DNA of 64,000 nt, from the NCBI GenBank assembly GCA_040954595.2, contig CM082581.2, forward strand, positions 8,355,413 to 8,419,412, given 5' to 3'. The position numbers were made by a program, and so were the translations under genes. This document shows positions 1 through 64,000 of the stretch, in pieces; position 1 is the stretch's first letter, and every line of letters starts with the position of its first letter. Origin of the DNA: Balanoglossus misakiensis (Eukaryota > Animalia > Hemichordata). The notes beneath the pieces were generated by a model that worked only from the letters and a program-made list of their open reading frames with translations, was not told the DNA's origin and searched no databases.

Positions 1-139
1 TGTTATCACAACCATAAATCGAGTTTCGATGACATAGCGACTCTTCACGATGTGTTATAGCTATTCATCTTCTTCCTCGAAAGATCAGCCACGAGCACAT
101 TCTGTATTGCCGCAGGGAATTTCTGAAAAAATTACCTAC

Positions 140-19249: not shown

Positions 19250-19400
19250 GTAAATGAATGAATAAGTAAATGAATTAAAGAAGTTAATTGAATGGTTCAA
19301 TCAATCAATCAATTGAAGAAGTTAATTTAAGAAATTAATTGAGTTAATTAATTAAATTTATTTATTTATTTATTCATTTATTTACTTATTTATTTATCTA
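19250..19400. repeat. AT-rich low-complexity tract with (TAAA/TGAA), (TCAA) and (TTTA)n units
   Basis: Visible tetranucleotide runs just downstream of the cyclase gene stop codon. Confidence 0.75.
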
Positions 19401-19472
19401 TATTTTATGTAAGCATTTATCACCCAAAACACTAACGATCTAGATGATTGAGAACTTGCTGATCAGAAGAGG

Positions 19473-21889
19473 TTAGAAATGTACAGAAATATAAATTGTT
19501 GACAGGGCCATCATCATGATAATGCCAGCCACAGGTAGGATTTGCCACCCTTTACTGAGGCCGCAGGGGTTGGGAACATCGGAGCGCCATCCAGTGGCAA
19601 ACATACGAATAGGTGAACCACTGCCTTCTTCTATCTTGAGGGGAATGGCGAAAACAGTGGCGCCTTTCACCGGCAACTGGTCGAGGTTGGCGACGTTTTC
19701 AAAACCTTAAATGGCAAAATGACATAATTTTAGTTTTGCGTTACAAAGGAGACTGGTACGCGCCCCACTGCGCGGAGTTATGCGATAATTCAACATTAGG
19801 GACTGGTCAGTTTCTTCGGCCGGGGCGGGGTGGATTATATTTTGTGGATATCAAAATGTGACCTATCCCCCCTCTCATTGAACATGGAAAAGCCCCTTAT
19901 AGGAAACATTCGAATTGGAAACGTATGCTTTTGCGTGTCGTTTTCAGGTAACATTGTCGGAATAAACGTAAAGACTATACAGATATAGTGTTGTCGCATA
20001 CCAGGTATATTCTGAGCAAATAAAACCCGATGTGCCCTAAAGTCTGTAGACGGGCCATAGTCGATTGATGCGGTGTCGATGCCTACTGCTTTAATCTGTG
20101 GAGAGAAAGACGACAATAATAATATTTATGCAATTCTATGTCATATTTATACAAGGTCCGTGTAATATTCAAAATAAAGATGTTATATTCATACTATTTC
20201 TTTGTGTGTGTTATTATCACTTTGTATGGATTTTCACATTGCGATTCATTAATTCCCATGTGAAAATGATATTCTGAAACAGTTCATCAGTACAATGTAT
20301 AAACATTAAATATTAGTCTGGAGAAAGAAATGTGAAGAAAATATGGAACAAACCTTTCTGTTATCAACCAGCCACTGAGCTGCATCAGGGTCGATTCCGG
20401 GGAAATGGAGCAGTGATGCATCGTCGGTGTCAGTACCCAAGTATGTCAACTGAAAAAGAACAGTGATTGTTTATCTTTGACCTCTGCACCGACGATGTTA
20501 TATGGGACATGGTACACACAGCTTTGACTGGACGAATAATTCTCTTTTCCCCAGTCTGCATGTACTTCTGGACTTGTGGAGTTGTTCAGCCGGTTCGATT
20601 ACATTTGTACTGCAAATGGTCTCTTCTTTTCCGTTTGTTTCATGGGCCTGGTAACTCCCTCACCTTGATTTGCTCGCACCAGGCCGGGTTTTAAGGTCAT
20701 ATTAATGCTTAAATTTATTTGGACCCAGGTCTGTAACCTAAATGATCCTTTCTCAGAGGATATGGTAATTTGCCACTTAAACGTCAAATTTACCATCCTC
20801 CTAAGCTCTGAGCCTCTCGATTGGTCGTGTCGTCTCTGACGTGACGTCAACATAAACGACTTTTCCCTCACAATAGCCCTATTAAAGCGCAAGTATAATC
20901 TGTAGCAGACGAATAGCATTTACCTTGTCCGGGTAGCGGCTTCCCCACCCAGAGTACACCAAGAGGATGACGTCATCTTCGATCCGACCATTTGCCTCCT
21001 CCCAAGCCTCTAAATCGGCAACTTCCAGTAAAGCGTCTCTATCCTGGTCGGCTTTGGCCTTGATGTCGACCTTGATAGCAGGTGCGATCAGGTTGTCCAG
21101 CGGTACGGCGTGTGTTCGCCGCTGACCCTGAAAACAGCACCGATGGCTGCAGTTTAGTGTACAAGTGGGTTGCGGTAGTCTAGTGTACACAGATTATTTT
21201 CCCGTCTTTGATGTTTATCACGTCAGACTTGACAGTCAGTGTTCACTACAGTTTAGTTTAGCATTCCTCGTAGTAAACGCTTGTTTAGTTGCCATTTATT
21301 TGATTGGTAAATGTCACCCTAGAAAATGGCTGATCAACACGGCATCCCTGTGTTTTATAAATGTAAATATTGGTGTGAACATTTGAGCTCGAGTCGAGAA
21401 GATTTCAAGAAAGCAACGACACTTTTCACATGGCGTGTAACTATGCGCCACAATTCAGACATATCTATACTGTCAACTTTAGACTCCCCTGGGCCTTTTC
21501 TGACATTCAAAGTCGCATTTTCAACATGCATGCAATACAACTTCGAATATCTGAAATGGGAGTCGAAAGTTGAAATGATTGTCTGGATTTCGGCGCTGGA
21601 AACGCACAGCCCTGGAGAAACTTGCCTGAACCATGTGAGCCGGGGAATCCATGTGCGTACCGCAGTGCTCAGGCATTCGAAAGGTATTTGTCTCAAAATA
21701 TTGTCCGTCGTCAGAGTGATTTCTAAAGACGACGTCAAAGGAGAAACCATACGCGGCTCCTGGCCAGATCAAGGTGTCCTCGTTCAAATTGTAGGTCATG
21801 TCCAAATACAGTGACTCGGAGGCAGCTACAGGGTTGGAATGACTGCACAAAACACCCAGGATAAGCGTGATCATCACGACTCTGGCCAT
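19473..21889 (-). CDS. Metal-dependent cyclase family protein (KynB kynurenine formamidase / isatin hydrolase-like), secreted or GPI-anchored
   Basis: Exons 21889-21626, 21127-20924, 20449-20354, 20095-20002 and 19705-19473 splice in frame. Motifs EHCGTHMDSPAH (HxGTHxDxPxH), LLVYSGW, HFPG, GIDTASID, ENVANLDQLP and PLKIEEGSGSPIR are present. There is an N-terminal signal peptide (MARVVMITLILGVLCSHS) and a hydrophobic C-terminus. Confidence 0.92.
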
Positions 21890-24478
21890 GGTTCGAATTA
21901 ACGGTACCCTATAATGGAGACAATGGAACGGTCGTGAAAGCATTAGATATAGATATAGATATAGATAGTACCACCGGCCAAGCAAAATACAGTACAAGAA
22001 TGAAAATATTACGGAAACCGCAAATCTGATGCGAAAATAAACGTAATGTTAAAGTAAAGGGACATCAGGTGTAACTTTTGGCGTTAATTTCAGTAATTTT
22101 GTTTTAATGTGTGTACCAAATGCAACTTATTGTTCTACTCCAAACAGCCTGCTTCTACATGTATATACTCAACACTCCGCTTGTCAACATTACGACCGTT
22201 CGAGTGGAAACCTGGGTCATTCATTGTTTTCTATTCATTTTGCTGTTTGCCTGAAGTAGCTTAGGTCACGTATAGTGTTTGCGCGGTTACACGAAGCGAA
22301 ACAAAGATTGGAATTCATCCAGAAAACCGCCCAAAAAGGCGTCAACACATTCCTTATTTGGTTGGTTCGTCTACAGTACCAGTCGCGAATACATGAGAAG
22401 CCAGTCAGAAGGAGAACTCGGCCCGTAATTCTTGCGTTCTCCTGCTGATCGCAGACATTAGGAGAACATTCTCCTTGTATATGTGAGCTGGGCGAGTTCT
22501 CTAGTTACCCCTGCCAGACTATACTATGATCGTGTGGCTGCCTGCCAGTGCTCTCTGCTATACCCCTTTAGTAGGTTAATGGTCTGCCGAGCAAGACTAC
22601 ATGTACACAGCGGTTGGCAGGGACCACATCTGACTTTACTTGGGTGTTCATTGGCTGATCGATTGGCCCTATTTCAAATCCCCGGGACGGTGTGTCAGGA
22701 CTCACCTTCAGTGACAGCAACCGATGTATGTCCGAAGGAGTCTATGCACACAGTACTCGTCAGGCACGGATATTGTCTGTTTTTTATAACCAGAGTTACT
22801 AGCGATATTCAAATTTCAAACATTAGAATAACTTATACAACCAATACCAGAAAGGAAGAATTGGGGCTTTTGTTGGCTCACAATGCAGGCATGAACAAAT
22901 CTCGCCGTAGCCTCACCCAGGTACCCCCGCTGACCTTTGGCGCATTGTGTACAAATATGTATACATTCTTCAGCCCATCTCCGATAATGGACGAGAATAT
23001 TATGGCGTTTCGGCGTTTGAGTTTGAATTAATTTAGTTCACCACCATAAGAGGCAGATATGGCAGCTATATCGGAAGGAAAAGAACTGCAACAGGTGGGG
23101 TTGAGCTGACCTGGTTCATGCCTCCCTGGTAGACATGATAAAGAGCGCCCAATCCGGGCAGTTTCACCTTCTGTAATAGATGCACTGTGGCTGATCGATT
23201 GGCCAAAGACAAAGTACAAACCGTGACGCACGCGCAGACGGGCGACGCGATCACATCTCCCTTTATCACATCCCCGTTAGCTAAGTTTTCTCCCAATAAA
23301 AACATGTATGCGGACTCACTTTCAGTGGCGGCGGCAACGACGTGCGAATATCCTGCGGGATCGAGCCGTGCAGGCAGTATCAGTCCAGACAAGCGACTGC
23401 CACGGTCCAAGTCGGATTATAGCCACGTCGATTGCTGCAAGAGGCTGAGTTGCCAGCGATGATAAAATTTAGATACGGAAATTGGGTTTGCCTGGCCTTT
23501 GTGAATCACCTCTATAAACTGCAAGCACAAAAAACGGCGGCTTTAATGTGAACGTGTTTTTGTTGTCGCCTCACAATGCACAGGTAACAATGGCTTCGTG
23601 TCCCCGCATGACCTGTGGGCGCATTGTTTGTGCGGTCTAAACCAGTCACTCAATATGGTCCAACAGACTTTCTCAAAATAGACGAGAGGAAAAGATCTAA
23701 AAACGTCGCGGGGCAGTGTTAGAAAATAAATTCCGAAAAAATGAATAAAAGACAATAAATCGTGTGTATTACGTCCCAAATCGCGCCCGACTGCAAAGCG
23801 CTGCAGTTTCAAGCTAACTTGATGAGGTGGTCATTGCACAGAAGAAAACAAGTCAGACGTACCAGGGTACAGGGCATTGCATATGCAAATTAGCAAATTT
23901 ATTAACAAGCAACCCCGCACGTGAGCAAATATTTTTAGAAAGTTGCAGATAATCCGGTATAGTTACTCTGCATTCATTGTGATGAATGTTTGTATTGGAT
24001 ATGTAAATATATCGCCCGGTCGGATTCAAGGTCATCTTGGATCAGTTCAGTTCATTCCAGGTCAGTAACTTACAAAGGATTCTGGTCTGACTGTCCTATT
24101 ATCACTGTAAGGGACATGGGTCAGAAACTTTGAAAGGAAGCAGACTCGGTTGTTCTGCCCAACAAGATTATAAACACAACATTTATTCATCTATGGGGTT
24201 TCGTAGCAAGGCAAACGTTTCAGGTCAAACAGTTTCACCCCAGTATAAGCAATTGAAAAGCTGAAATGGAAAAAAAACTTTCATTTTTGACATTATTTTG
24301 GTTTGTTCTTTAGTTATTTAGTGATAGGTTATTAGAAGTAAGTGATATTTTCATTTTAATCATGCACAACTCAAACTATGATATGGGTAGATGAAAGTTC
24401 TTGAGATGTATCACATATACGTACACTAAAACTATTGATGTTGACTGTCTCTCATTCAGCCGTCTTTGAAATCATCAG

Positions 24479-26518
24479 TCAATCTCTGGCCAGTGTCCAT
24501 TCCAAGCTCCGTTCGTACCCCCTCAGAAGATTAACCCGACGTGCGTTAAGCTTCCATTGATACGGCATAACCCGATTGAGCTCGTGGGTGAAATCCCGCA
24601 GTCGCAGTCCGTTGTACTGCATGACGTCCCTGAACTTTGGGATATCCTTACGGCTAGGTGTCTGTCCTGACGCAACATGCCTCTTTATGAAAACAGCCCG
24701 GATGTACTTGATAAACGGTGTCACCATATCGTGATATTCTATGTAAGACGCTTGCGACATGTAATATCCAATGTCTAGTGGGTTTACACCGGTGTCCAGA
24801 ACTATACTGGGCATCTTTGCCACCGAGGTCAGCGACCCAACATCCATTTGAGCGGGCGCGACGGACTGTACTGGGCCAGTCCAATTAAGCAGTTCAGTAA
24901 TGATCACAGAGTGGGGGTTCGACGCATTTAGGAGAGGCTTGAAAAAATCAAGAATGGCAGGAATGCCATAGAAATCAGCCAGGTTAGAGGTCGCAATACG
25001 ATCAAACTTCTTCAAGGCAATCGCTTCACCCACTTTAAAACAATCACCCGGTAGAAAACGAAAGGATACTTGTTTTCCTCGTAGAATGAACTTCTCAATC
25101 ATGCACGCTATGTAGCTGCGATACATTTCTGGCACACAATCTACGTCCTTGTGTGATCTTGCCTGTATATAATCCCAGCCTGTGAATGGAAGTACGTCGG
25201 GTAAACTTGGTAAAATCAACGGTTCGTGACAGAACTGTAGGGCAACAGGGTTTGTTGGCTTCAATACATACGCCAGAACTGCATTTTTGTAGAGTGGGTT
25301 TTTGCATAGCAAGGTTACATTTTGAAACACAGCCTCGTCTTTCTTCGGGTCTTTTGATGACAGGAGGTTTCCATTTCCCCACCATTCTTTAAGTGATCTA
25401 CGATGGCGCTCAGGAACACAGGCAACGTAATTTGACCAGCCCTCTGCAGACGGGGCATCGTGCTTGATGCTTGCATGTCGTTGCGTGTGGATGTGGTTTT
25501 CTGGTCCTCGATTTTGTAGTGACGTCATCCACGCCGCCCAGACCGGTTTTAATTTGAGGAGATCACTGTCGCTGATGACTAGTAGTTCGCCCACAGGATT
25601 TGTAGCTAACATCTTGCTATCACTCGCCATCAGCTCTTTGAGGGCGGTCGCTAAATATTGGTTATGCTCATCGCTAATGCACAGAGAATACCACAACTGG
25701 ACCAGTGCTTCGGATGTTTTCTTCGGCTCTTTCGCAGTGAGCATCATGTACAGGAACAAGAGATTCCTCGCCAAAATGTGGACATCGCAGTCGTTAAGAC
25801 TAAATTCAACCTGGCCTTCAAACTCTTCTGGAAGCGATGCCACTGTAGTGATGACATTTCTGAGGTCGCCGACACCAGCAAGAAGTATTGACAACTTGTC
25901 AGGAGAGTATCCGCCTCCCCATTCGTTCTGTTGCAATTTTAACAGATCAACAGCAGGGGTGTTACCCCAGTAATAGCAGTTGCCAGCAACACAAGGTGGC
26001 AGACGAATTTTCTTTACGCATCTTCTATATAAATCTTCACATATTCCGATAATTTCTTCTTGCTCAGCCACGCACGCCCCCTTGTGGTGTCGCCAGTCTT
26101 TCTTTTGGCAATCCATATCACAGTACCATACTTGCAAACAGCCAGAGCACTGTTTAACTGTCGGTGATTTCTTCTTACAGAAACTGCAGGCGTTAGTTTT
26201 CTTCGCATGCATGCATTCGGTCTGCAAACAAAATGCGTGTAAAATTAAAACTTAGGTCAGTCTAAGACTTGGAAAGAGAAACAAGCCGCACCCTAACGTC
26301 TTGGCTGATGCTCATGGATCAAAAATATCTCGGAAGTAATGGAGGAGAATTATTGCCTGGCGATGCCTTGGCTGAGTGAGATCAATTTTACCAACCTCGT
26401 GTCTAAACGTGTCCTCCTTCAGGCATTTCTTACCACAGTACAGACCAAAATCGCACTCGGGGCATTTCACTTTCCCTTCACGACCACAACGCCAACACGC
26501 ACCAATGGCAGAATCCAT
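24479..26518 (-). CDS. Double MYND-type zinc finger + DUF4470 (Rossmann/methyltransferase-like) protein, copy A
   Basis: Exon 1 26518-26396 (MDSAIGACWRCG..KCPEC..YCGKKC..H, GAG|gttggt). Exon 2 26221-24479 has a second MYND (CSFC..CSGC..YCDMDCQKKDWRHHKGAC) followed by YYWGNTPAVDLL, LLAGVGDLRNV, ILARNLL and FDRIATSNLAD, typical of MYND-DUF4470 proteins. Confidence 0.88.
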
Positions 26519-27023
26519 GGTAGTCTCTCTATAGGCACAATACAGATGAGAATTAGTGTATTTCACACCACCTCACTTGTGATGCGTATATAGATATCTT
26601 CACGACGAATGACGACAAGCAGGAATCGACGGGTCGTTATGTCGCTGATGCGTTTGCAATGTTCGTATGTAAAGCGTCGATGGTCGTCTTGGTGAAAGGA
26701 TCAACAACGTCATAGCGTAGCGAAGAATATGACGGTTATAGTTCACTGGAATTCTGTTCTTACGTTTCTAAATAATATATAACGAAAGAGAAAGTCTGAA
26801 GAACTATAAAGTGTACAATGTATGTCGTGCCGTCTGTAAACCCATTTTTGGCGGGGTTTTTTTCTGTAGTCTAACATTAGACATTGCAAACCCGATTTCG
26901 TGGCCATTAGGCTTATCGTCACAGTACTCTGTACACGAACACTCCGACAATATTACAAAACACAAATCTTTCACTTTATTTTCTTTGAAAACGAGGGTAA
27001 TCTCTTCAACGAATTTGAACAAC

Positions 27024-27031
27024 ACTTCCGG
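27024..27031. promoter_or_regulatory. ETS-type site (ACTTCCGG) in the putative bidirectional promoter of the MYND pair
   Basis: Exact CCGGAAGT core on the minus strand, near the middle of the spacer between the divergent genes. Confidence 0.35.
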
Positions 27032-27661
27032 TGTAACCGCGCCTACATGTAAACGACCTTTTTATAAGTTTGCGGGTTTGTAGAGCGACGTCGAAGAATC
27101 AGATTTTCTTTTCCTTTGGCAGATCCAATCCGTGTTCTGTCTTGTTTAGCTTGGCACAAAGCTGAGGTCGTGAATTGGAAATGGTTTGTTGAAGTGTAAC
27201 TGTGAGGACTTTCCTAAGGTCAGCGCAGTTTCGTGACATTCGCCAATAATAAAATAATCTGCGGGGAGGCATACCGAGGATAAGTTTTTTTAACCGTTCA
27301 CCTCCGACAAAATGGTATAGGCTACACAATTAACGCCTAAAATGAGTTTACAAAACGCAGGACCTAAGCCCTAACCCTTCAAACTTTCTCTTTCGATATA
27401 AGTTATTTGGAAACGCAAGATTACAATTCCAGTGAACTCATACAATCACATTATTCTTTACGCTATGACGTGGTTGAACTTTTCACCAAGACGACCATCA
27501 ACGCTTTACATATACAAACATGGCAAACACTTCAGCGACATAACGACATTCCTGCTAGCCTTCATTCGTCGTGAAGATACATGTATCTATATACGCATCA
27601 CAAGTGAGGTGGTGTGAAATACACTAATTCTCACGTGTATTGTGCCTATAGAGAGACTACC

Positions 27662-29712
27662 ATGGATTCTGCCATTGGTGCGTGTTGGCGTTGTGGTCGT
27701 GAAGGGAAAGTGAAATGCCCCGAGTGCGATTTTGGTCTGTACTGTGGTAAGAAATGCCTGAAGGAGGACACGTTTAGACACGAGGTTGGTAAAATTGATC
27801 TCACTCAGCCAAGGCATCGCCAGGCAATTATTCTCCTCCATTACTTCCGAGATAATATTTTTCTGATCCATGAGCATCAACCAAGACGTTAGGGGGCGGC
27901 TTGTTTCTCTTTCCAAGTCTTAGACTAATCAATACTTGGCTGACCGCAGTTTAAATTTTACACACATTTTTTTTGCAGACCGAATGCATGCATGCGAGAA
28001 AAACCAACTCCTGCAGTTTCTGTAAGAAGAAATCACCAACAGTTAAACAGTGCTCTGGCTGTTTGCAAGTATGGTACTGTGATATGGATTGCCAAAAGAA
28101 AGACTGGCAGCGCCACAAGAGGGCGTGCGTGGCTGAGAAAGAAGAAATTATCCGAATATATGATGCCTTTCATAGATCCATTTGGAAAATTGCACCGCCT
28201 TATGTTACTGGCAACTGCTATTACTGGGGTAACACCCCTGCTGTTGATCTGTTAAAATTGCAACAGAACGAATGGGGAGGCGGAAACTCTCCTGACAAGT
28301 TGTCAATACTTCTTGCTGGTGTCGGCGACCTCAGAAATGTCATCACTACAGTGGCATCGCTTCCAGAAGAGTTTGAAGGCCAGGTTGAATTTAGTCTTAA
28401 CGACTGCGATGTCCACATTTTGGCGAGGAATCTCTTGTTCCTGTACATGATGCTAACTGCGAAAGAGCCGAAGAAAACGTCTGAAGCACTGGTGCAGTTG
28501 TGGTATTCTCTGTGCATTAGCGATGAGCATAACCAATATTTAGCGACCGCCCTCAAAGAGCTGATGGCGAGTGATAGCAAGATGTTGGCTACAAATCCTG
28601 TGGGCGAATTAATCGTCAGCGACAGTGATCTCCACAAATTGAAATTGGTCTGGGCGGCGTGGATGACGTCACTACAAAATGGAGGACCAGAAAACCACAT
28701 CCATATGCAACGACAGGCAAGCATAGAGCTCGATCCCTTGTCTGCAGAGGGCTGGTCAAATTATGTTGCCTGTGTTCCTGAGCGCCATCGTAGATCACTT
28801 CAAGAATGGTGGGAAAACGGAATCCTGTTTTCATCAAAAGACCCCAAGAAAGACGAGGCAGTGTTTCAAAATGTAACTTTGCTGTGCTTAAACCCTCTGA
28901 GGTACAAAACTTCGCATCCAGTGTATCCATTAAAGCCAAACCCTGTTGCCCGGAAGTTCAGTAATGAACCGTTAATTTACCCTACTATACCTGACATACT
29001 TCCATTCACAGGCTGGGATTATATACAAGCAAGTTCGCACAAGGACGTAGATTGTGTGCCAGAAATGTATCGCAGCTACATAGCGCGTATGGTTGAGGAA
29101 TTCATTCTACGAGGAAAACACGTATCCTTTCGTTTTCTACCGGGTAACTATTGGAAAGTGGGTGAAGCGATTGCCTTAAAGAAGTTTGATCGTATTGCGA
29201 CCTCTAACCTGGCTGATTTCTATGGCATTCCCGCTATTCTGGATGTGTTCATGCCTTTCCTGAAAGCGTCGAACCCCCACTCTGTGATCATTACAGAACT
29301 GCTTAATTGGTCAGACCCAGTGAAAGTCGTTGCGCCCTCTCAAATTGATGGAGCTATCCTGACGTCTTTGGCAAGAATTCCTCGTATAGCTCAGGACACC
29401 GGTGTAGGCCAAAGCGATATTCGGTATTACTTATCGCAAGAGTCTTTCACAGAATACCACGATATGGTGACACCATTCATCAAGTACATCAGGGCCGTCT
29501 TCTTGATGAAGCAGGTTGTGTCAGGAAAGAGACCCAGCCGTAAGGATATCCCGAAGTTTCAGGACGTCATGCAGTACAACGGACTGCGACTGCGTGATTT
29601 CACCCACGAGCTCAATCGTGTTATGCCGTATCGATGGAAGATAAACACTCGTCGAGTTACTCTCCTCAATGGGCACGAACGGAGCTTGGAATGGACACTG
29701 GCAAGGGTTTGA
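27662..29712 (+). CDS. Double MYND-type zinc finger + DUF4470 protein, copy B (inverted paralog)
   Basis: Exon 1 27662-27784 and exon 2 27979-29712 (ttttgcag|ACC). Same intron position and motifs as copy A. Confidence 0.88.
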
Positions 29713-31612: not shown

Positions 31613-34600
31613 TTATTTCGTTTCCTCCTGCTCGACTTTGTCCTCTGGTTGGGCGTCGCCATTTTCTTGTGGCTTGGTTCCTTCCTGGGGTTTCTCGTCG
31701 GCATTGACATTGCCGCTGTCCTCTTTCGTTTCCTTGTTCTCCTCCTCCTCCTTCGCCGGCTCCTGGACTTCAGCTGGTGGGTCTTGTGCTTTCTGCTCCT
31801 CTGTGTTTACTTTCGCCTCGGCCACTTCCTCTGTCTCCTTCGGCGCCTCCTCCTCCGCTTTGCTCTCTTCCGGTTTCTCCGCCACTTCTTTGGCCTCTTC
31901 TACTTTGTCGTCTGCTGGCTTTTCTCCCGCCGCCTCCGCGTTCTCCGCTGCGTCGCCGTTGACGACACCGTCGGCGGGCTTCGCGTCCCCGTTCGCCGCC
32001 TCGCCTGGCTCGGATTTCTCCGCCTTGGCGGCTTTCGACTTGGCTCCCTCCGGCTTCCAGACGGTCGGGTCGGTGTCGGGCACGGCCGGAAAGTTGCTAA
32101 TGGCGACGTCTCCCATGGTGCACTGGTCCCAGTCCGGCCAATACTTTTCCTTCATTCGTTCACAGTATTCGAACAGGTTTTTGCAGTCACCTGAAATTGG
32201 CCAGACAAGTTATGAGATCAAAGTGTCAAAGGATGAGAAGATATATTCCTATCATGGGATTAAAGTTACTGCTCCAGCTGGATGACTGATTACGACATTG
32301 GCCACTGAACATGACAGTGAACAATGGAAACGACAACAATATGATCATTTTAGTCGCACGGAGTTGGGAAGACGCGACTGGCTCCTGCCCACGTAGTGCA
32401 AGTCGGAAAATACCCAGCCCTGGACACATTCATTCATTCGTTCATTACACCCAAAGAAAACTGACAAATCACGGCTCAGAAAATCCGATTGCTTATGTAT
32501 GAAGTTTGAACGGAACACCTGACCTTTGATCAATTTTTCCTGAGGTGAATCTGGTAATTCGTATGCAAATGTTGCCATCAGGCCGAAGATACTGGCGTCG
32601 ACTTCGTTCCCATTTTCACCGAAGAAAAACTGTTTGTCTCCTGAAAACAGTAAAGAAATTGTGTGGAAAAAAATGACACCATAAACTGGGATTGCGTGAA
32701 AGCATTGCCAAACCACTGTGAGACAGATAGTTATTAGATTTCCTCATAACTAGATATTATTAATACATCCGGTTATACACATTTTTAGATTTGACTAAGA
32801 CGGAAACATTTTCAAAGGAACTTATTTGCTTCCTTGTTTCATGGTCCATATGCGTGATGAATGACGCATGTCAAGACAATGTTACGAACGTTATTTTTTA
32901 TCAAAAATATTTTTTAGAGATTAGGATGATTATCTTAATATTTAAAACTGATTTCAGATAAAAATTGGCCTACAATCACGTTACCTAGGTAACCGGATAG
33001 TGCCCGGATGTCATTCTCGGCGATTTGATAAATCTCCTCTCTGCTGTGTCGTCCAATGCCGTGGCTGTGGAGCGTCTTCTGAACTTGGCCTTTGTTCCTC
33101 CAGAGCAAGATGTCCATCATGAACCCGCGCGGCAAATTGTCTCTCAGAGAGGTGGACAGATCTTTGTCCACCCACCGAGCGTACACTAAGGTCCTGAGAG
33201 GGAAAGATAACCGAAATGAAAATCAGAGGAATTGATCTTTCATTTTTTAAAGAGGCCTGGGCATACGCACGATAGAACGAATTAGCAAATGTGGACCGAG
33301 TGAGACGACTGGAATGCAAGCATTTTAGCGTTTTAACCCCTTTACGAGAGTAGCCTATGATGTACTGTATTGTGGCAACTTCTGATCTGCCTACTACTAT
33401 ACTAACCTACAGCTCTTCAGCTCCTCAGTCTGGAGCTCGTAGGTGTATACATCTCGCCCAATACCCCCGCCCCCTCTGCACTCGTAATTTATAACCAGAC
33501 CAAAATTTTAAACAACGGACATTTCTGTGTCAGATATCATAACCTTGGCTACGTGTGCACCATGGAGATATTTGATCCCTGAACAGCGTTGCTGCCATGG
33601 ACACGAAGTTCAAGTGATCCTGTCTGTTGCCTGGTAACGGGAACATTCCCTCCACGAAAACACGACAAAAGTTACAAAACGTCGTCTCTGGGTCTGGCAA
33701 GAAAACCCCCACATTTCTGACGACACCGGAGCCACGTGAAAGTGGGGCAACTTATTGCTATGGTTGCGGCGCTGGGTTATGACATGTCGCGTCACGTGAT
33801 TCATCCCTCAATGTTCCCTGTTTAAGCTGACATGACATACACATCTTGCAGTGTACGTCACAATGGACTATCCGCAATCCATTTTCTCGTGGTCGACTAA
33901 TCCAAAAATTCGTATTCATCTATGATAAAATTTATTAATGCCCCGGTGCCATTCAGTTGTAAATCACCCGCGCGAATAAAGAAGAGCCGAAACAAACGAC
34001 ACTTGTTCCAAGTCTTTCGAAAAAAAATTAACAAAAATGCCAGGCTGTGGCAGCTATCCTGATAGAGGAATTCATTGCTGTCACGTTCTACGGGAAGTAA
34101 TTCAAATTTTCAACACGGTCCCCCATTAAAAATAGCAGTACTAACTTCAATAGAAACCACGCTCATGCTAATAACCATTTATGTCCTGTTTCATGCACAA
34201 TTTTATTACATCTCTTTTCCATAGGCATCCATCAAACACCGGACCTGATTTTCATTTACAATTTATTGTTTCGGTGTAACGCACTTTCCATAAACAAGGA
34301 TATTTTTAGCAGAATACCATGGTGGCAACGTAAATCGGCACGGTCCCTGCGCACTTTAAATCGGAGGCGTTACATGTATTGTGATACGGTGAATGAGAAA
34401 GGCACGGGGTGATCGCCGTGATTAATATGCAAAGTGCAAGCGAATTTTCATGTTTTAGCCTGACCACGAGCACGTCCACCAAGGCTCGTACATGTATAGT
34501 TGTCACAATCGTTTCTGCAACGTGCGTGTCCGGATATGCCGTGAAAATTAAGAGAACACGGACCGCTGCAGGAGTGGTGAACTCTAACCCAAAAGCAGCG

Positions 34601-53991: not shown

Positions 53992-54943
53992 TGAGTCACA
54001 CCAAAAAAATATTCCCGTATACCACCACCAAAGTTAACATCAAAGAATGACCACTGCTGTCTTCCTTACGAACCATCTGACAAAGAACTTACTAAGTTAC
54101 AGCGATATTTTCCCGAACATGAAGATACACCATCTGAAAAGAACATTTCGTCTTTCCGAAGAACAAGGCGTACAGCAAGTGGGACGCTAACTCGAAAGGT
54201 CGCTCTAATTTTCCCTCTTCTTTAGATGTGAAGGGAGATTTTTCGAGCAGAGTTTTATTGCTGAGGGATGGATAGAAATGCATTGCCCAGCAACAAGTCG
54301 GCGAGTCACGTATTGTTCAATTCGGTTTATTTTATGACAGGTTATTTGATCAGTTGAATAAAAGCGCAACAATTCCTTAACCTTTTTGCATGGGGTTCAG
54401 TTTGGGCTTTCCATTGTCTGAAGTGAATTTATTTCATTTTAATTTTACAAAATGACACCACACACATGGTCAAAGTGGGGACTATTTTGAGAATTTTTTT
54501 TACTGGAAATCCAGGCGCGCGTGTACACGGTGAAACTTATGTTCGGAGCAATTTGAGCCCTCCCCGTGACGTCACTGGTATGCAAGTAGCGCAACATTTG
54601 TTGGCATGTCCCTGATTCAGAAGTGGGCACGATCGGTCCTTCGGTTTTATTTTTCACGAGCTATCGAAATTCCAATTGGTGTAAAACTTATGACGCGATC
54701 AGGTGTGGCAAGACACCGAGGCCTCGTTTTCGATTTCATCGACATGCCAACGCGGGTGCGCGCTGCACTACTTTCACCAATTTTATTGTCGAATATTCTC
54801 GCGGGGATTTCCGTGGCGTTGTCCTATTCTTTTACTGGTTGACACGTGTCACTCCCACCAAGTTCAAGTATCATCTTGCTTCCCACACTACTACCGGGTG
54901 TGTACTTCCTCAGTGGGCCAGTGATAACGCCCGGCAATATAAA
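53992..54943 (+). promoter_or_regulatory. Inducible-type promoter of the candidate cytokine gene (AP-1, CRE, NF-kB, TATA)
   Basis: TGAGTCA 53992-53998; kB-like GGGCTTTCC ~54404-54412; TGACGTCA 54567-54574; consensus kB GGGGATTTCC 54803-54812; TATAAA 54938-54943, 39 nt before ATG 54977. Confidence 0.6.
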
Positions 54944-54976
54944 TTACCTGCCCATAAACTATTAAACAGAGATTAT

Positions 54977-57900
54977 ATGGTGAGGTATTGGTTGTGATTA
55001 AAGATGTCAGTCTAGCCGTTGAAGTTGTTTTATCGGACTACTAGTGGCATATTTAAGAATCTGTGGGAAAGTTCGTCGGATTCGTTCAGTTCTCTCAGAC
55101 TGATGTTGCCTTCTCGCTGTGATTACATGCGTACGACTCAAAGGGAAACTGGATTCACCCGGAAGAACATCCAAGTGCATGCTTACTGCATGACGAAATA
55201 TGCATATATTTACCTAAATATACCAAATATTCGTCAGACATAAACTTCAGTGACATGCCTTATTTCTAAGTGATGGCGAAATTACCAATTTGGCGAATTC
55301 ATGTAGGTCCCACTCGGTGTTCGAGGGGATTTGGAGGTGGAATTGTCCCCTATATCATGATCGACTGCCGCCTTTTTCCTCTGATGAAAGACATTTTCCT
55401 TGAATGTCGTAAGCAATGAAAAAATAACCATGTGGGGAAAAAGTATAAATAAGAACGAATTTTTCGCATTAAAACACTTACCAACGAGAAGCCGACACGA
55501 AGAAAAGTCACTGACATTTGACTGCAGACATCAAAATTAGCAAAGATGGAAACCGCTGGCAGTAAGTATACTTTATCATACATACACGGATAGAATTTGT
55601 CCGTCGACCTGGTCGTGAAACGAGTAACTGATATATCACAGAGAAGTCAAGGCGATGTGTTTGTTAATTGAAGAAAACTGTTTTCTTTAATTAACTCACT
55701 CTATGGAACTAATTTCGCACATGTTAGATATTTTTTACGTGTACCTTTTGGCCATTTTCCCGAAAATTTAGTTTGTGCTAATTTTACTGTAGTGTCTTGT
55801 TTGGGAATTGAATTCAAGTCCGGACTAGAATTCAATAATGATCGTCACACCAATGGATGCTATGTTAGCAAGCTAAATATTGGGGTTTTCTACAGTGGTA
55901 AACCAAAAAAACATACATCCTTAAGGAATCAAAATTTCAAAGTAATTTTATTCTATTTTTTTTTTCGCCTTTCTAAGTTCTCAGACTTGTGTGCGTCGTG
56001 TTGGTGACAGCACTTCTGTCGGAAGCTACACCTCTACCAAGTAGTACCCCCAGCTCCAGCTGTGTTGAAACATGCACAGGTTACGGACTGCTTGCTAACG
56101 AGGGGAGTGTCGTCCGCACCGAAGCCTTGCAGACGCTGAATAGATACGTGAGTTGAATTTCTGTAAATTGCTATACCAGTGGATCACGCGTGATCTCGCC
56201 GAGATGCGAGATCGGGGATGCAAAAATAGTACTAGTGGTCAGTGCCGGTTCATAGTACACATATACACCGAGAAACACGGCCATCGAATTCCCTGTACAT
56301 AAGTCACCGGTATACGTATTTCACACCCTATTGATATGAATCTCTGTACGTTAATTTGGAATTCAGAAAGGGAAAATTGTAAGTACAATACCAGTTCTAA
56401 TATTATGAGTAATGACTGGAATATTTATGCGTCTTTTTGTCAATGAAAAGACCCCCAAATTTCCAGATTAGTTTCCGCCTGTGCGTTTACTGGGGGCACC
56501 CGGGAACGCTGAACGACGTATTTTTTTCTGATAACAGATATAAATTTTAACCTGAGAGTCATAATAATTCACCTTGACCATTTTGTTGATAGTGTCAGGA
56601 TTTATTGCCATACAATCATGATTTCTCACCTCTCAGTGATAAGCGACTGTAAAATTGGCCGGGACGATCGTTGGCGTTGGACTAGTGGAAATATAATTCA
56701 CAAACTTTCCATGACAACTGTGAAAATCTCTGCCTTTTTCAAAATTTCTAACATGTTGTTTAGCGTATACATACATGTACATGATTTTTTTCGTGTATAA
56801 AAATCACAATTATATACACACAAAGCGCCATTTACACGAAACTTTGGCAAATGTACAAACTCATAATCACGGTGTACGGTTTCAAAACTCCTGGGAACTT
56901 GATATCAAAAGAGAGTCAGAAAATCATACTATGGGAATAAAATTCCTAAACGACATAAAAATAATGTGCGTACATATTACACATTGGAGTGTGACGTGGA
57001 ACTTATGAAACAGTTTCGTGGGAACACGATCTCAAGGCTTGTCGTATAGGTTTATGTGTAGGCCTACGGGGGTTAACTATGATTTAATGATCAGGGTATT
57101 ATTTATTAAAATTTGCTCTCGTTTCTTCTCCAACACAAGAGCTTTCCGGTTTTTAGGGAGCCAATGATTCTCCGTTGCTCGGAAACTCCTTTGGCTTCAA
57201 GTGTTTGCACGAAGCAATCCATCAGCAATTGGGCTTTAAATTCGTTCACTTGTCCGTTGGAATAGAGGCGGCGACGACAGACGAGAAGTCCTCTCTGACG
57301 ACGGTGAACCTATATTGTCGTCAACTCTCAGCTGATAAACAGGTTTTGTGTCTTTTCCACGACAGGACCAAGAACGACCGGTTGGTGATTACAGCTTGGA
57401 GGTCCCCACACTGCCTGAGATGAAGTCGGTAATGGAACGGAGGCAGATGTCGGTAAGTACTATAACAACAGCAACAACGTACTGTGGAATATTTAATTCA
57501 AAATGGCCGAGTTAATTCCACCGTCAGGTGGTCCTTAAAAATGCTAAAAATGTTACTGTAAACCGTACACACCTTACTTTCTAAGGAAGGCAGCGTGAAT
57601 GTCTAGAAGATGGCCGATTTAAACACTTCGTTGAACAAAGAGTAAACGTGACCAAAAAACGGAGTGAAGTACAATCCCACCATTAAAGTCCAATACGAAT
57701 TTCATGAACCTCCTCACTACATTTGATGTCCACAGGAAGTCGATCTCCTGCTGTGGCACAAATCGAGTCTGTTGAACTACCAGGAACACTTCGTACAGCT
57801 CATGGAAGAAGAGTATGCTGAGAATCCCAGCTTCTATTACGACTTCAAGAACCAGACATTTAGGTGTGAGCGTGCAATTGTCAAATTTGACTCCATGGTA

Positions 57901-58361
57901 AGTCTGGATATCAATTGTTTCCGTGACAAGAAATTGTATTCCCGTGACACTAGACAGCAACGTTTCATCTGGGCAGCATACTTCAGGGTGGAGGGTGCGT
58001 GTAAAAAAATAGATGCATGTGAAATTGTATTCTTTTAACGTTTGGGATTTTGTTTATCCGACAACAAAATTTCCTCCTCGATTAAATCACAAAATAGTTG
58101 GTCGTGATATTGAAGTCTATTTTGCGCCGATCCTGCTGCCTCACTGAAGACGTGATTTTAAACGTGTAAAATTTTTAACAGCTGTGTGGAAAGGCTTACC
58201 AGGATGTGACCCTGGACCCCTTCGATCTGGAAGAAATCGCGGAAACCAGTATCAGGCACTACAGGCAGAGGAAAATCCAGAAGCAATACTACGATTACTC
58301 CGTGACCATCTCCCAGGATGCCGAGTGGCTCCAGTTCACTGTCCATGAATGTCCCTTTTAG
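54977..58361 (+). CDS. Putative secreted long-chain four-helix cytokine (IL-11/IL-6/LIF/CNTF family-like), 199 aa
   Basis: Exons 54977-54984 (ATGGTGAG|gtattg), 55985-56147 (|gtgagt), 57366-57452 (|gtaagt), 57736-57897 (|gtaagt) and 58182-58361 (TAG) total 600 nt with no internal stop. Protein, with / at exon joins: MVRLVCVVLVTALLSEATPLPSSTPSSSCVETCTGYGLLANEGSVVRTEALQTLNRY/DQERPVGDYSLEVPTLPEMKSVMERRQMS/EVDLLLWHKSSLLNYQEHFVQLMEEEYAENPSFYYDFKNQTFRCERAIVKFDSM/LCGKAYQDVTLDPFDLEEIAETSIRHYRQRKIQKQYYDYSVTISQDAEWLQFTVHECPF. The gene model is well supported; the family assignment is an inference. Confidence 0.7.
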
Positions 58362-58461: not shown

Positions 58462-58976
58462 TTATTTATTGACATATTTATTAAGTATTAGACTAGTTTA
58501 TATTCGAAAGTTTTTATAGTATTGGCCAAATTTGAGAAGATAAATTTTAATTGCTATAATCACATTCAATCAACATCATCATCACTTACAATGATATTTT
58601 CTAACATAAAGTGCTTTTACAACACTTCAGAAAATCCAAGTTGTTATGCTTGACATTGTGATCAGACGTCCCTGTTTGAAAGGCAACGTGCGAAAATTGG
58701 CAAGCTCAACACCCTTGTTGAGTGAGGGCGCTCTCTCCAGACAAATTGGCTCTTCAAACAGTGGCGCGTTGGTCGTTCGTAAGGCAATATTTGCCAAGAT
58801 TTTACTGATGTATTTCTTCAAAGAAACGCAATAGCTTCTGTGAAGTCCCCCTTTTTCATATTCAAAACGCAACTTTTCATGTAAGCTAGCTTAGACTAGG
58901 GATATATATTGGACAGTTTATAAGTAATGGCTTTATTTATTGCTCCTTTTCAAATAAAGATTTAGTACGCAATAAA
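58462..58976 (+). promoter_or_regulatory. AU-rich elements and polyA signals in the candidate cytokine 3' UTR
   Basis: TTATTTATT nonamers at 58462-58470 and 58933-58941, another ATTTA at 58476-58480, and AATAAA at 58953 and 58971. Confidence 0.55.
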
Positions 58977-60016: not shown

Positions 60017-60462
60017 GTCTGTTATTGACTAGTTATCTAAGCAACAAAATAAAACAGATTTAAATGGTTTACCATCAGCAGGGCTGCCTGAATATCAGGA
60101 ACATGACAAAACTAAGTAAAGTTGTTGTCTTTGCAAGAATTTATATCACTACTGTAGCTAATCTAACATCAAAACCCTATCTCCACCATATGGTATCTTT
60201 ACCATTTTTGTTTACTGCTCTCTGGTCTAAGTGTTTTAGAACTACTCTCATATTTGTGTGGTTGCTGTAGATATCATCCTGCAAATACATGAGAGGTTAA
60301 TCAAACTTAATCACACAGTTGCACAATAAAGAAATTCCATCTAAATCCCCTGTAAAGTAACAAACTCAGTTTTACTATGATAACATTGGTTCTTGAACGT
60401 TACATCTGTCGTAGCTCTTGACAAGATGGCCGCCATCACACAGCTACATAGCAGCCGGGCAT

Positions 60463-63400
60463 CTACTGCAGCGAAGGGAGTTTGAACTTCTTCACGCAGT
60501 GCTGAAGGAAGTTGACCACAAAGAGATGGCCATCCTTGGTGAGCAGGATATCTGATGGTCTCATCAATCCACCTTGGCACGTGATGTGACCGATGAATTC
60601 ACCATTCAGTCTGAACACCTGGATGAAGATACACAACACATACAGTAGACTAGATTACTATGAAAGTGTGTAAACAAATGATGTTACCCACTGAACAAGA
60701 ACTTTGGAATAAATAAGTGCCTGAAGGATATTTGACGTAGCCCATTGCTTAAAACTCAACTCAGTACGTTAACATCTGTAGGATGTTTTACACAGACAAG
60801 AAAACTGATGAAAAAAATTATCATCAAAAGGTATAACCGCTGTCCTGAGTTTACCTGAATACGGTCATTCTTGCTGTCAGCAATCAGTATGTTGCCCACG
60901 CTGTCCACAGTAACACCTGATGGTTCATTGAACTTGCCCACTGTTGTCCCTTTTGAGCCAAACTTGGTGCGAAGTTCTCCTTGCAAGGTAGTCACATAGA
61001 CTGCATGGTTTCCCAGGTCGCTGACGATCAGGTTGTCTTCGTAGACGTCGATGAAACGACACTTGTGGTGGGTCCCATTCGCCAGAGGTTCAAACGTCTT
61101 GCAATGTATCACGCTGCCGTCCACGTCAAACATGACTACACGTGCATTGTATTTGTGTTTGCAGGTGTCTAAGACTATGACGTGGCCGTGTTTATCTACG
61201 GCCATACCGTATGGAGATTTGAAGAGAGAGCGCCCAAAGCTTGTCAGAAACTTCCCATCAGAGTTGAACACTTGCACCTCGATGTCGTCCTTCACCAGTA
61301 TGTCACCGGACTGAGTTACAACGACTGCTGACGGTCTTGAGAACTGTCCAAGATCCCCAATACACCACTTGAAACCACCGTCTGGATCAAACACCTCCAC
61401 CCGATTGTTTCCGGTGTTGGCAATGACATAATTTCCACCTGGTGTAATGGCAATGCCAATGGGGTAACGGAGATGGCCATGATCCACTCCAAAAGACCCA
61501 AACTTCCGAACAAGGGGTGCGAATACACTGCATGTACTTGCCAAGAGATTCTCCAGATCAACACTCGGAACTTCTGCACTTTCTAGTTCTTTTGTGACGG
61601 GATCACTGCCACAGTGGTCATCTCCTCTTGTGTCTTTATACCCCAGTTGGCGAGCTGCCAATGGTTTCCTAAGGGGACCACTGTTAGGGGATTTCTTGAC
61701 TACCAAATTTCCCGAGCTACTGGAGAAGGGGGAGAGTGTTAAAGCTGGTGATTTGGGACACATGTCTATAGACCCCGTCTCTGATTCCGTCTGCCAGACC
61801 TCTGTGATGTTTTCTGGACTAAGTGGATAGCTGTTTGTCCACTCTGCATCTCCAAAGGAACCACTTTCTTCTCGATCAGCTGTCGGACTATACTTTCCAC
61901 CTGCTACATCTGCTTGCATCTCCTTGTGACCTTCTTCAACGTGTGACAAATCTTGATCTGTCCATCTTCTGACCTTGGCGTCATCCTCGCTGGTGTGTTC
62001 AACTCTGCTACATGTACCTTCATCGTTTCCTTTCAGAGTTTCTTTACTCGGCAGACTACCATTCCATTCGAGGAAATTTTCATTCAGGTCATGATTTTTC
62101 ATCCCGCCGGTCCCATGCTGGTCCCTGTCAAATCCGCCAACGGAGTTTATGCTGTCACTCTCCCAATTCTCTGCACTCCTCATCAGCTCATTATGCTGAG
62201 AAGTGGTCACCAGATGATCTGTCATCTCTGTACCGGTACTTCCATTCTGTTGTTCGACAAAACCACTGACAATACTTCTATCGCTCTCCCAGTGCTCTGC
62301 ATTCATGATCTTCAAGTCTTGATGAGAAGCAACAACTGTATTGCTGTTTGACTTGTTGATGTTAGCATCTGGCGGGGCTTCATTAGAAGTGAATGAGACA
62401 CTGTCGCAATTTCCAGCAGGGTCGTCACTCAACTCAGGCTTTGCTTCTTTGAAGACATCACTGAGAGTACCCACTGAGGAATGTCTCTTTTGGCCAAGAC
62501 TGCCACTTGAACTTGTACAGGTACTCTGGTCGGACTGAATCCAATCTTTGATCTTCAGAAGGCAAGCTTTGTCAACTCTCCGTTTCTGAGCCACCTCTTT
62601 ATGTCCTTTGTTAGCAGCCTTTGGTAACAGACATGTTTCTCTTCTTAGCCTTCCACCATCTCCGTCACTACCATCACTGTAACTTGGTTTGCGACGGACT
62701 TGCATGCAAAACGGACTTCCTCGGATGTGCTTTCCGAACAATTTGATCTCCAACTTGTACCTGCCAAGCATCTGAGGACAAAACACCAGCTTGTATGTGC
62801 CCTGTTTGTCAGGATCATCGTATAACTCCACTGGTTCTTCTCTTTTCAAGCGGTTCTCCAGGCGCACAGTGAAGTTGCTGATGAGGCCCTCGACATACTC
62901 GCATCTTGCATCAATCACAACGGTTTCCCTCTGTCCAACTCTTCCGGAATACAACCCATTCCCATCGGCACGGACATTTGGAGGGAATGCCAGACTCTGT
63001 TGGATGCTACCCAGGTTCTCTCTCAGTTGGTTCAAGTCGAGTGGTGTTATGCTGGCTCTGAAGAACACGGTAGTCTCGTCCTTCAGATTACATTTGGGAG
63101 TGAGGAACTTCTCACTGGTGACATGAGTCAGTCTGGCCAATAGGGTATCTTTCATTGCTAGCAATTCAGCTTTATTGGCATATTTCAGAATGTCTTCTGC
63201 CACTTTACATGTACACTGAAGTAGATGACTGTTTTCTTGAAGTTGTTTCTCCCCCGTCTCAAGATGCTCTATTTTCTTTGCACATATGCTTTCTAACTCG
63301 CACAGCATTTCTTCTTCGTATTCCTTTATCAGGTTAACGTTGCATTCTGTCATTTCTTGGACTTCCAGCCTGGCATTTTCAAGCCGTTTTTCCAGCTCGA

Positions 63401-64000
63401 CTTTGGCAAGTGAGAATTCGCGGATAGTGCTCGGCAATGTCTGATTGGTCAATACCTTCAGCTTTTTTATCATGTCGCACACAACTGCTGGGAGTCTTGG
63501 CGTTGCTGTACTCAAGGGAACTGTATCATGACCAGAAAAGCCATGGGCACTTTCTTGGCAAGCCACGCAGAAGGCTTCATCACATTCGCCACAGTAAATA
63601 TCAAGCAGCTTGGTCTGATGTATTCTGCAATAGACTCCCCTTTCCTTTGAGCTCCGATACATCAAGAATTCCCCAAGCTCCATCACCATGTGGTCTTTGA
63701 ACACTGTCATGTGCGCATGTGCGGCCACACAGTTGAAGCACAGATACTTGGTGCATATGACGCAGTACTTCTTGGCTGGCAAGTCGTTATCACAACTGGT
63801 GCAAGGGATGTCTTCGGCGAGACTGTTGTGGGAGGCAGTGGGCTCCTTATGAACGCAATTCAACACATTCGCAACAAAGGCATTGTCGGTAAGACCTGGC
63901 ACACTGTGAGGTAGCACAGACTTGGTGTCACACAATGGACAAGGCACAGACAACTTCACCCGGTCAGTTTTTAAGCAGGGCAGGCATGCTGTGTGCAAAC
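60463..64000 (-). CDS. TRIM-NHL E3 ubiquitin ligase (TRIM2/3/71-like: RING, 2 B-boxes, coiled coil, filamin, NHL repeats); 5' end outside window
   Basis: A large exon from >64000 to 60855 carries a partial RING (HTACLPCL..CPLC), B-box1 (CTSC..C..C..YLCFNCVAAH), B-box2 (CRIH..YCGECDEAFCVAC..H), a filamin repeat (GTYKLVF..G.HIRGSPF) and NHL repeats (RYPIGIA, GKFNEPSGV..ADSKNDRIQ|gtaaac). The last exon is 60618-60463 (VFRLNGEFIG..RPSDI..HCVKKFKLPSLQ*). Confidence 0.93.

What the first reader, a model, noticed from the sequence alone, without database searches (positions are those of the whole stretch)
54977..58361. Hidden 5-exon gene encoding a candidate invertebrate IL-11/IL-6-family helical cytokine
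Seen in sequence: five exons with GT-AG splice sites join into a 199-aa protein with a clear signal peptide. Coding exon sizes are 8/163/87/162/180, with a tiny first exon and phase-0 introns 2-4. Established knowledge: long-chain class I helical cytokines (IL-6, IL-11, G-CSF, GH) share this 5-exon layout. From memory, human IL-11 is also 199 aa with coding exons 7/173/87/162/171; this needs verifying, and its intron 1 is phase 1 rather than phase 2. By eye, exon 3 PVGDYSLEVPTL resembles IL-11 DGDHNLDSLPTL. Exon 4 LLNYQEHFVQL resembles IL-11 helix B LLSYLRHVQWL, and LCGKAY resembles LIF LCSKY. The C-terminal QKQYYDYSV..AEWLQFTVHE resembles CNTF helix D EKKLWGLKV..SQWTVRSIHD. N-terminal CxxxC plus cysteines around helix C could form LIF-like disulfides. 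Inference: this is a gp130/JAK-STAT ligand in a non-vertebrate animal, where such ligands are hard to find by similarity.
Basis: partly seen in the sequence, partly recalled or inferred. Interest (0 to 1): 0.93.

Follow-up and report, generated by a model that had tools for sequence, protein, structure and literature searches.

The report
Invertebrate IL-11-like cytokine gene
This stretch of a likely invertebrate genome holds a five-exon reading frame for a small, predicted secreted protein that resembles interleukin-11 and interleukin-6 in exon layout and, by eye, in sequence, so it is likely an inflammation-induced signal of a family that recent surveys found only in vertebrates.

Summary
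The five exons join through GT-AG introns into an open 199-aa frame (8/163/87/162/180 nt), and 0 of 300 shuffles gave as good a gene chain. The first exon is uncertain: an alternative at 55546-55561 has a better donor and its own TATA box, and gives intron phases 1,0,0,0 as in IL-11. The mature protein is the same either way.

Against a published IL-11/IL-6 alignment, motifs match by eye in order: the start of helix A, the AB loop, helices B and C (8 of 54 identities, 3.5 expected) and helix D. Both TATA boxes have a κB-like motif upstream, and three AU-rich elements follow the stop.

The decisive tests are missing. The spliced protein was not folded or searched whole, single exons found no relative, no RNA run was listed, and helix D did not form when exon 5 was folded alone. 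The protein is acidic, not leucine-rich, and lacks the site III tryptophan, so it is not filed as IL-11. Best reading: a long-chain class I helical cytokine (about 0.8). Amphioxus 'GH-like' proteins are the known precedent. The animal group is undetermined.

The parts
54567..54574 (+). CRE-type palindrome TGACGTCA, 370 nt upstream of the distal TATA box (function inferred)
   Evidence: 1 of 6 in the window
54803..54812 (+). kB-type motif GGGGATTTCC (function inferred)
   Evidence: 4 matches in the window against 3.4 expected, so only its position is notable
54938..54944 (+). distal TATA-like box
55339..55349 (-). kB-like 11-mer upstream of the proximal TATA box
55444..55450 (+). proximal TATA-like box
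55528..55561 (+). alternative exon 1: ATG at 55546, 16 coding nt, GTAAGT donor, phase 1 (model B, 204 aa); the acceptor at 55528 allows an in-frame six-exon model C (211 aa)
55978..56147 (+). exon 2 (starts 55978 in models B and C, 55985 in model A): signal peptide core, two cysteines, putative helix A
57366..57452 (+). exon 3, 87 nt, phase 0-0: putative AB loop with P-x-L-P-x-M
   Evidence: motif compared by eye
57736..57897 (+). exon 4, 162 nt, phase 0-0: two predicted helices (putative B and C), one N-glycosylation sequon, one cysteine
58182..58361 (+). exon 5, 180 coding nt with stop: cysteine, predicted short CD-loop helix, putative helix D, C-terminal cysteine
   Evidence: motif compared by eye
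58462..58482 (+). two AU-rich elements (WTATTTATW), 12 nt apart
58933..58976 (+). third AU-rich element and two AATAAA signals (58953, 58971)

Best explanation
The exons join into one open reading frame whose product is predicted to be secreted and is likely a long-chain four-helix cytokine of the IL-6/IL-11 type, which would signal through a gp130/Domeless-like receptor and JAK-STAT after likely induction by infection or injury. Shown by sequence: the frame, the splice sites, a hydrophobic N-terminus without a membrane anchor, five mature cysteines, and the promoter and 3' motifs. Inferred: transcription from one or two TATA promoters under NF-kB/CREB-type control; a short-lived mRNA; cleavage of the signal peptide to give an acidic 182-aa, 21-kDa protein; an up-up-down-down bundle with helix A in exon 2, the AB loop in exon 3, helices B and C in exon 4 and helix D in exon 5; C29 and C33 bonding to C142 and C197, which that topology places at the same end of the bundle, with C130 left buried. 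It is probably a pre-vertebrate lineage of the family and not an IL-11 orthologue.
For: Layout: one intron inside the signal peptide and three phase-0 introns in the mature part, as described for IL-6, with a phase-1 first intron in model B as in IL-11. Signal: 11-residue hydropathy peak 3.24, and nothing above 0.58 in 19-residue windows beyond residue 25. By-eye comparison with the IL-11b/IL-11 and IL-6 alignments: from C33, 4 of the first 11 residues are identical to halibut IL-11b at the start of helix A (4 of 25 over the whole helix); P-x-L-P-x-M matches flounder; exon 4 against human IL-11 mature residues 69-122, without gaps, has 8 of 54 identities against 3.5 expected from composition (hand count, Poisson p about 0.03, register from recalled exon borders); Y-S-V-x-I-S matches fish F-S-[IV]-E-I-S at the start of helix D. 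Exon 4 folded alone gave two long helices (4-29, 31-52; pLDDT 68). Only 2 of 15 TATAAAT boxes on the + strand have a kB-like motif within 250 nt upstream, and both belong to this gene; 3 of the window's 10 WTATTTATW elements lie in the 615 nt after the stop.
Against: Exon 5 folded alone gave only one helix (residues 16-30) and no helix D, at pLDDT 54. None of 5 candidate helices is significantly amphipathic against shuffles (p 0.12-0.44). No cytokine family matched any of 4 single exons in Pfam or any of 3 exons tried in PDB sequences. The helix D match needs a one-residue indel in mid-helix, and no Trp or Phe sits at the site III position. The motif matches were picked by eye after the fact. 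The coding model prefers another frame for exon 5 (-5.0 against -9.5), and the chain finder chose another exon 4-5 junction. The promoter and 3' motifs were also noticed post hoc, and the 3' region is AT-rich (GC 0.34).
Confidence: 0.8

Rival explanations
1. It is the same fold but acts as a hormone: a relative of the amphioxus 'GH-like' proteins, controlling growth or salt balance more than inflammation. This overlaps the best explanation in fold and differs in role.
For: Amphioxus GH-like is a 208-aa class I helical cytokine. Three B. floridae copies were modelled on human IL-11, the figure legend of that paper gives 5-6 exons for them and the GH family, and they lack the GH cysteine pattern. 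Models B and C here are 204 and 211 aa.
Against: Exon 5 and exon 4 searches found no close relative, although cytokines within Branchiostoma are 72-95% identical in another family. I could not check that the GH-like proteins are in those libraries. One published GH-like primer did not match the window at 3 mismatches. The kB-like and AU-rich motifs fit an inducible gene better.
Confidence: 0.2
2. It is the true IL-11 orthologue, conserved from before vertebrates.
For: The closest by-eye matches are to IL-11, including a cysteine at the start of helix A as in fish IL-11b. Exon sizes 87 and 162 equal the recalled human IL-11 sizes.
Against: pI 4.7 and 9.3% leucine, against basic and leucine-rich IL-11 (halibut pI 9.67, 16.6% leucine). 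There is no site III aromatic. The helix D end matches IL-6 as well (W-L-Q against F-L-Q). The exon sizes are not verified.
Confidence: 0.1
3. It is a real gene for an unrelated secreted protein, and the cytokine resemblance is chance.
For: No tool gave a cytokine hit. The amphipathicity test was negative and exon 5 did not fold as expected.
Against: Four motif matches fall in the right order and the right exons, together with size, intron positions, cysteine placement and regulatory motifs. Fragments of 29-59 aa have little power against such divergent families: BLAST also failed for lamprey IL-6.
Confidence: 0.12
4. It is a class II helical cytokine (interferon or IL-10 type), as recently reported in amphioxus.
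For: About 200 aa, a signal peptide, five exons and helical; such genes exist in lancelets.
Against: Those genes were defined by phases 0,0,0,0. Both open five-exon models here have a tiny first exon in phase 1 or 2, and the direct phase-0 joins from the ATG at 54977 to exon 2 break the frame. The interferon-gamma signature listed is not seen by eye.
Confidence: 0.04
5. It is not an expressed gene, but a chance chain or a pseudogene.
For: The exon-1 and exon-5 splice sites are weak in part, and the chain finders disagreed on some junctions.
Against: The frame is intact. Exons 2-5 score above local non-coding sequence (0 of 2766, 0.4%, 2.3% and 1.6% of null windows score as high). Third-position GC is 0.53-0.69 against intron GC 0.33-0.40, and 0 of 300 shuffles match.
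Confidence: 0.04

Closest known systems
Vertebrate IL-11 (human; teleost IL-11b, PMC3271213)
   Same: About 200 aa, signal peptide, tiny phase-1 first exon (model B), motif matches at the start of helix A, the AB loop, helix B and the start of helix D, N- and C-terminal cysteines as in fish IL-11b, and ATTTA elements in the 3' region.
   Different: Acidic and not leucine-rich; no site III Trp/Phe; an apparent one-residue indel in helix D; five mature cysteines; about 15% identity in the best exon.
IL-6 (jawed vertebrates; lamprey and hagfish IL-6, PMC13081863)
   Same: [quoted passage not shown]
   Different: Lacks the IL-6 cysteine signature C-x9-C-x6-GL-x2-Y; the neighbours are FAX-like genes and a TRIM, not TOMM7.
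Amphioxus 'GH-like' class I helical cytokines (Li et al. 2014, not read; described in PMC9010856 and PMC9546618)
   Same: Invertebrate class I helical cytokine of about 205 aa; the B. floridae copies were modelled on IL-11.
   Different: Their sequences were not visible to me (the alignment is a picture). Single-exon searches did not return them, so this is probably not a close orthologue. They were studied as growth and osmoregulatory hormones.
Drosophila Unpaired ligands of Domeless (PMC7378365)
   Same: Invertebrate helical JAK-STAT ligand; the functional analogue.
   Different: No sequence or gene-structure likeness was tested here; Unpaired proteins are much longer (recalled).

Membership tests
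Long-chain class I helical cytokines | 150-280 aa with an N-terminal signal peptide and no membrane anchor | tested here: met
   199-211 aa; hydropathy; criteria as; cleavage site judged by eye, no SignalP available
Long-chain class I helical cytokines | [quoted passage not shown] | tested here: met
   model B gives phases 1,0,0,0; which first exon is used is unresolved
Long-chain class I helical cytokines | Up-up-down-down four-helix bundle | tested here: inconclusive
   only single exons were folded: two helices in exon 4, no helix D in exon 5 at low confidence; fold searches uninformative
Long-chain class I helical cytokines | Match to a family profile (Pfam IL6, IL11, CNTF, LIF_OSM) | tested here: inconclusive
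   0 of 4 single exons matched; the whole protein was not scanned
IL-6/gp130 family | Signals through gp130 or a gp130-like receptor and JAK-STAT | not testable with these tools
   no host genome held, no receptor sequence, no assay
IL-11 | Basic, leucine- and proline-rich mature protein | tested here: not met
   pI 4.74, Leu 9.3%, Pro 4.9%
IL-11 / IL-6 | Tryptophan (Phe in fish IL-11b) at site III, the start of helix D | tested here: not met
   by eye: Lys, Gln or Ile at that place depending on the register; tyrosines lie 2-5 residues later
IL-11 | Coding exons 7/173/87/162/171 | tested here: inconclusive
   the 7-bp first exon is confirmed; the other sizes are recalled and one search found no text source; this gene has 16/170/87/162/180 or 8/163/87/162/180
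IL-6 | Signature C-x9-C-x6-GL-x2-Y-x3-[FL] | tested here: not met
   cysteines at 29, 33, 130, 142, 197; signature
Type I interferon-like class II cytokines | Intron phases 0,0,0,0 | tested here: not met
Amphioxus GH-like | Sequence orthology to the B. floridae GH-like proteins | not testable with these tools
   sequences only in a picture; indirect searches negative

The most novel reading that the evidence does not exclude
The host is a non-chordate, and this is its gp130/Domeless ligand: an IL-6/IL-11-type cytokine still recognisable motif by motif, with the vertebrate exon layout and the same control logic (kB and CRE promoter, AU-rich decay). The inflammatory gp130-cytokine gene would then predate chordates, and the amphioxus 'growth hormones' would be misnamed members of the same ancient family.
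Probability: 0.35. Interest if true: 0.87.

Novelty: new member of a known kind. Interest (0 to 1): 0.66.

Why it matters
Surveys from 2025 and 2026 report gp130-like receptors, JAK and STAT in many invertebrates but IL-6-family ligands only in vertebrates, and lamprey IL-6 was found only in 2026 by structure screening. A concrete ligand gene with identical mature protein in all three models makes the missing-ligand question testable: fold it, express it, and assay STAT. It could also serve as an outgroup for IL-6, IL-11 and CNTF, and test whether amphioxus 'GH-like' is really GH. The score is held down by the amphioxus precedent, the unknown host group and the untested fold.

Full report
Observation. 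With an approximate, recalled splice matrix, the donors of introns 4, 3 and 2 rank 1, 2 and 17 of 389 GT sites in 53.5-60.2 kb. The acceptors of exons 3, 4 and 5 rank 5, 10 and 78 of 339. A coding model trained on three long neighbouring ORFs scored exons 2-5 above local non-coding windows (0 of 2766, 0.4%, 2.3% and 1.6% score as high), although another frame scored better for exon 5. Third-position GC is 0.53-0.69 against 0.33-0.40 in introns and the 3' region.

Chance. A splice-only chain finder recovered exons 3 and 4 exactly but chose other exons 2 and 5; 0 of 100 shuffles reached its score. With coding scores it recovered exons 2 and 3 and the starts of 4 and 5, but chose another first exon and another 4-5 junction; 0 of 300 shuffles reached 49.1 (maximum 28.6). 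The size windows were set to cytokine-like values, so this shows a gene at this place and not every junction. No RNA run was listed to settle the junctions.

First exon. An ATG at 55546 with a GTAAGT donor (rank 10) joins the acceptor at 55978 in phase 1 and gives 204 aa with sizes 16/170/87/162/180 (model B). That acceptor is itself weak (AAG, rank 58), so the summed splice scores are close (2.6 against 1.6). The strong donor right after the ATG at 54977 (rank 3) breaks the frame if joined to exon 2, but joins in frame to an acceptor at 55528, giving a six-exon 211-aa model C. All three models give the same mature protein. B and C have the phase of IL-11, whose first intron lies 7 bp after the start.

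Regulatory anatomy. TATAAAT boxes lie at 54938 and 55444. They are the only 2 of 15 on the + strand with a kB-like motif within 250 nt upstream (54803, 55339), and the first also has a CRE at 54567. The strict kB motif alone is at chance level in the window (4 against 3.4). Three of the window's 10 WTATTTATW elements lie between the stop and the AATAAA signals at 58953 and 58971. These were noticed after the fact. They fit an inducible, short-lived cytokine message; ATTTA motifs are described for fish cytokine mRNAs.

Protein. It has a hydrophobic N-terminus and no later membrane segment. The mature part, assuming cleavage after the alanine that ends the signal, is 182 aa, 21.4 kDa, pI 4.7, 9.3% leucine. 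Cysteines are at 29, 33, 130, 142 and 197 in model A numbering. The spliced protein was not folded or searched whole, which leaves the fold open. Exon 4 alone gave helices 4-29 and 31-52 at pLDDT 68. Exon 5 alone gave one helix at 16-30, where IL-6 has a short CD-loop helix, but no helix D, at pLDDT 54. Helical amphipathicity was not significant in 5 of 5 segments; putative helix C and the CD loop were highest.

Comparison by eye with the alignments in the supplement of PMC3271213. From C33, C, T, G and G are identical to halibut IL-11b within 11 residues of the cysteine that opens helix A, and without gaps exon 2 ends at human IL-11 mature residue 39, the recalled exon border. P-x-L-P-x-M in exon 3 matches flounder IL-11b, and P-T-L matches human. 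Exon 4 laid without gaps on human mature residues 69-122 has identities at 5, 12, 13, 15, 18, 22, 43 and 46: 8 of 54 against 3.5 expected from composition (hand count). Several columns invariant among the five IL-11 rows are not kept, for example the tryptophan of helix B and the proline before helix C. Y-S-V-x-I-S matches F-S-[IV]-E-I-S of all four fish. If one residue is missing in mid-helix, W-L-Q then falls on F-L-Q of human IL-6. The site III tryptophan position holds no aromatic residue.

Mechanism, inferred. Injury or microbial signals would act through NF-kB and CREB-type factors on one or both promoters. The secreted bundle would bind a class I receptor of the gp130/Domeless type and trigger JAK-STAT, and AU-rich elements would end the pulse. 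In an up-up-down-down bundle the start of helix A lies beside the ends of helices C and D, so C29 and C33 would pair with C142 and C197. C130 falls on a leucine of IL-11 helix C and is probably buried and free. The missing site III aromatic suggests a different or simpler receptor complex than the IL-6/IL-11 hexamer.

Host. GC near 42%, CpG observed/expected 0.93, short introns and dense genes point to a non-vertebrate animal (inference). The group could not be fixed: the neighbouring TRIM found only 31-34% identical proteins.

What is known. IL-6-family ligands were reported only in vertebrates (PMC13203501, passages; PMC12284397, passages). Lamprey IL-6 was found by structure screening after BLAST failed (PMC13081863, passages and section 5). 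Amphioxus has a 208-aa 'GH-like' class I cytokine and several related genes, and that review says none were detected in acorn worms or sea squirts (PMC9010856, passages). Three B. floridae copies were modelled on IL-11 (PMC9546618, passages and supplement parts 1, 2 and 6); their alignment is a picture I could not see, and it bears directly on novelty. Also seen as passages: PMC3271213 (plus supplement 1 whole), PMC7378365, PMC5376476, and two interferon preprints, whose supplements were closed. Li et al. 2014 was not read. Two earlier notes of this scan describe similar five-exon genes in cephalopods; I did not check them and do not count them as support.

Verdict. The gene is real (about 0.95). 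It is likely a long-chain class I helical cytokine working like IL-6/IL-11 (about 0.8), but it is not filed as IL-11 or IL-6, because defining features of each were tested and not met. New member of a known kind; interest 0.66.

Noticed in passing
window 60440-64000, - strand: TRIM gene (B-box, coiled coil, filamin, NHL) running off the window end. One open stretch covers over 1000 codons and includes about 400 residues without a Pfam match between filamin and NHL. It ends about 1.5 kb from the cytokine gene's 3' end, tail to tail. Best relatives are only 31-34% identical.
   Followed up: partly
window about 31000-52000, - strand: Tandem array of at least five FAX-like (GST_N_4) genes, 46-75% identical in the shared exons. 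A long Glu/Lys/Ala-rich open frame at 31613-32209 is probably the tail of the last copy.
   Followed up: partly
window 24479-29712: Two MYND-DUF4470 genes arranged head to head as an inverted duplicate, with a small upstream exon that also looks duplicated.
   Followed up: no
window about 19400-22050, - strand: Multi-exon cyclase-family (PF04199) gene with what looks like a signal peptide.
   Followed up: no
window 68-307, - strand: Exon resembling a Cys-loop ligand-gated ion channel (Neur_chan_LBD, E 0.016); further exons probably lie between 1 and 18 kb.
   Followed up: no
whole window: The palindrome TACATGTA is about twelvefold over-represented (54 against 4.5 expected, both strands), with (ACC)n, (ATC)n and poly-G runs. 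This may help place the host group.
   Followed up: no
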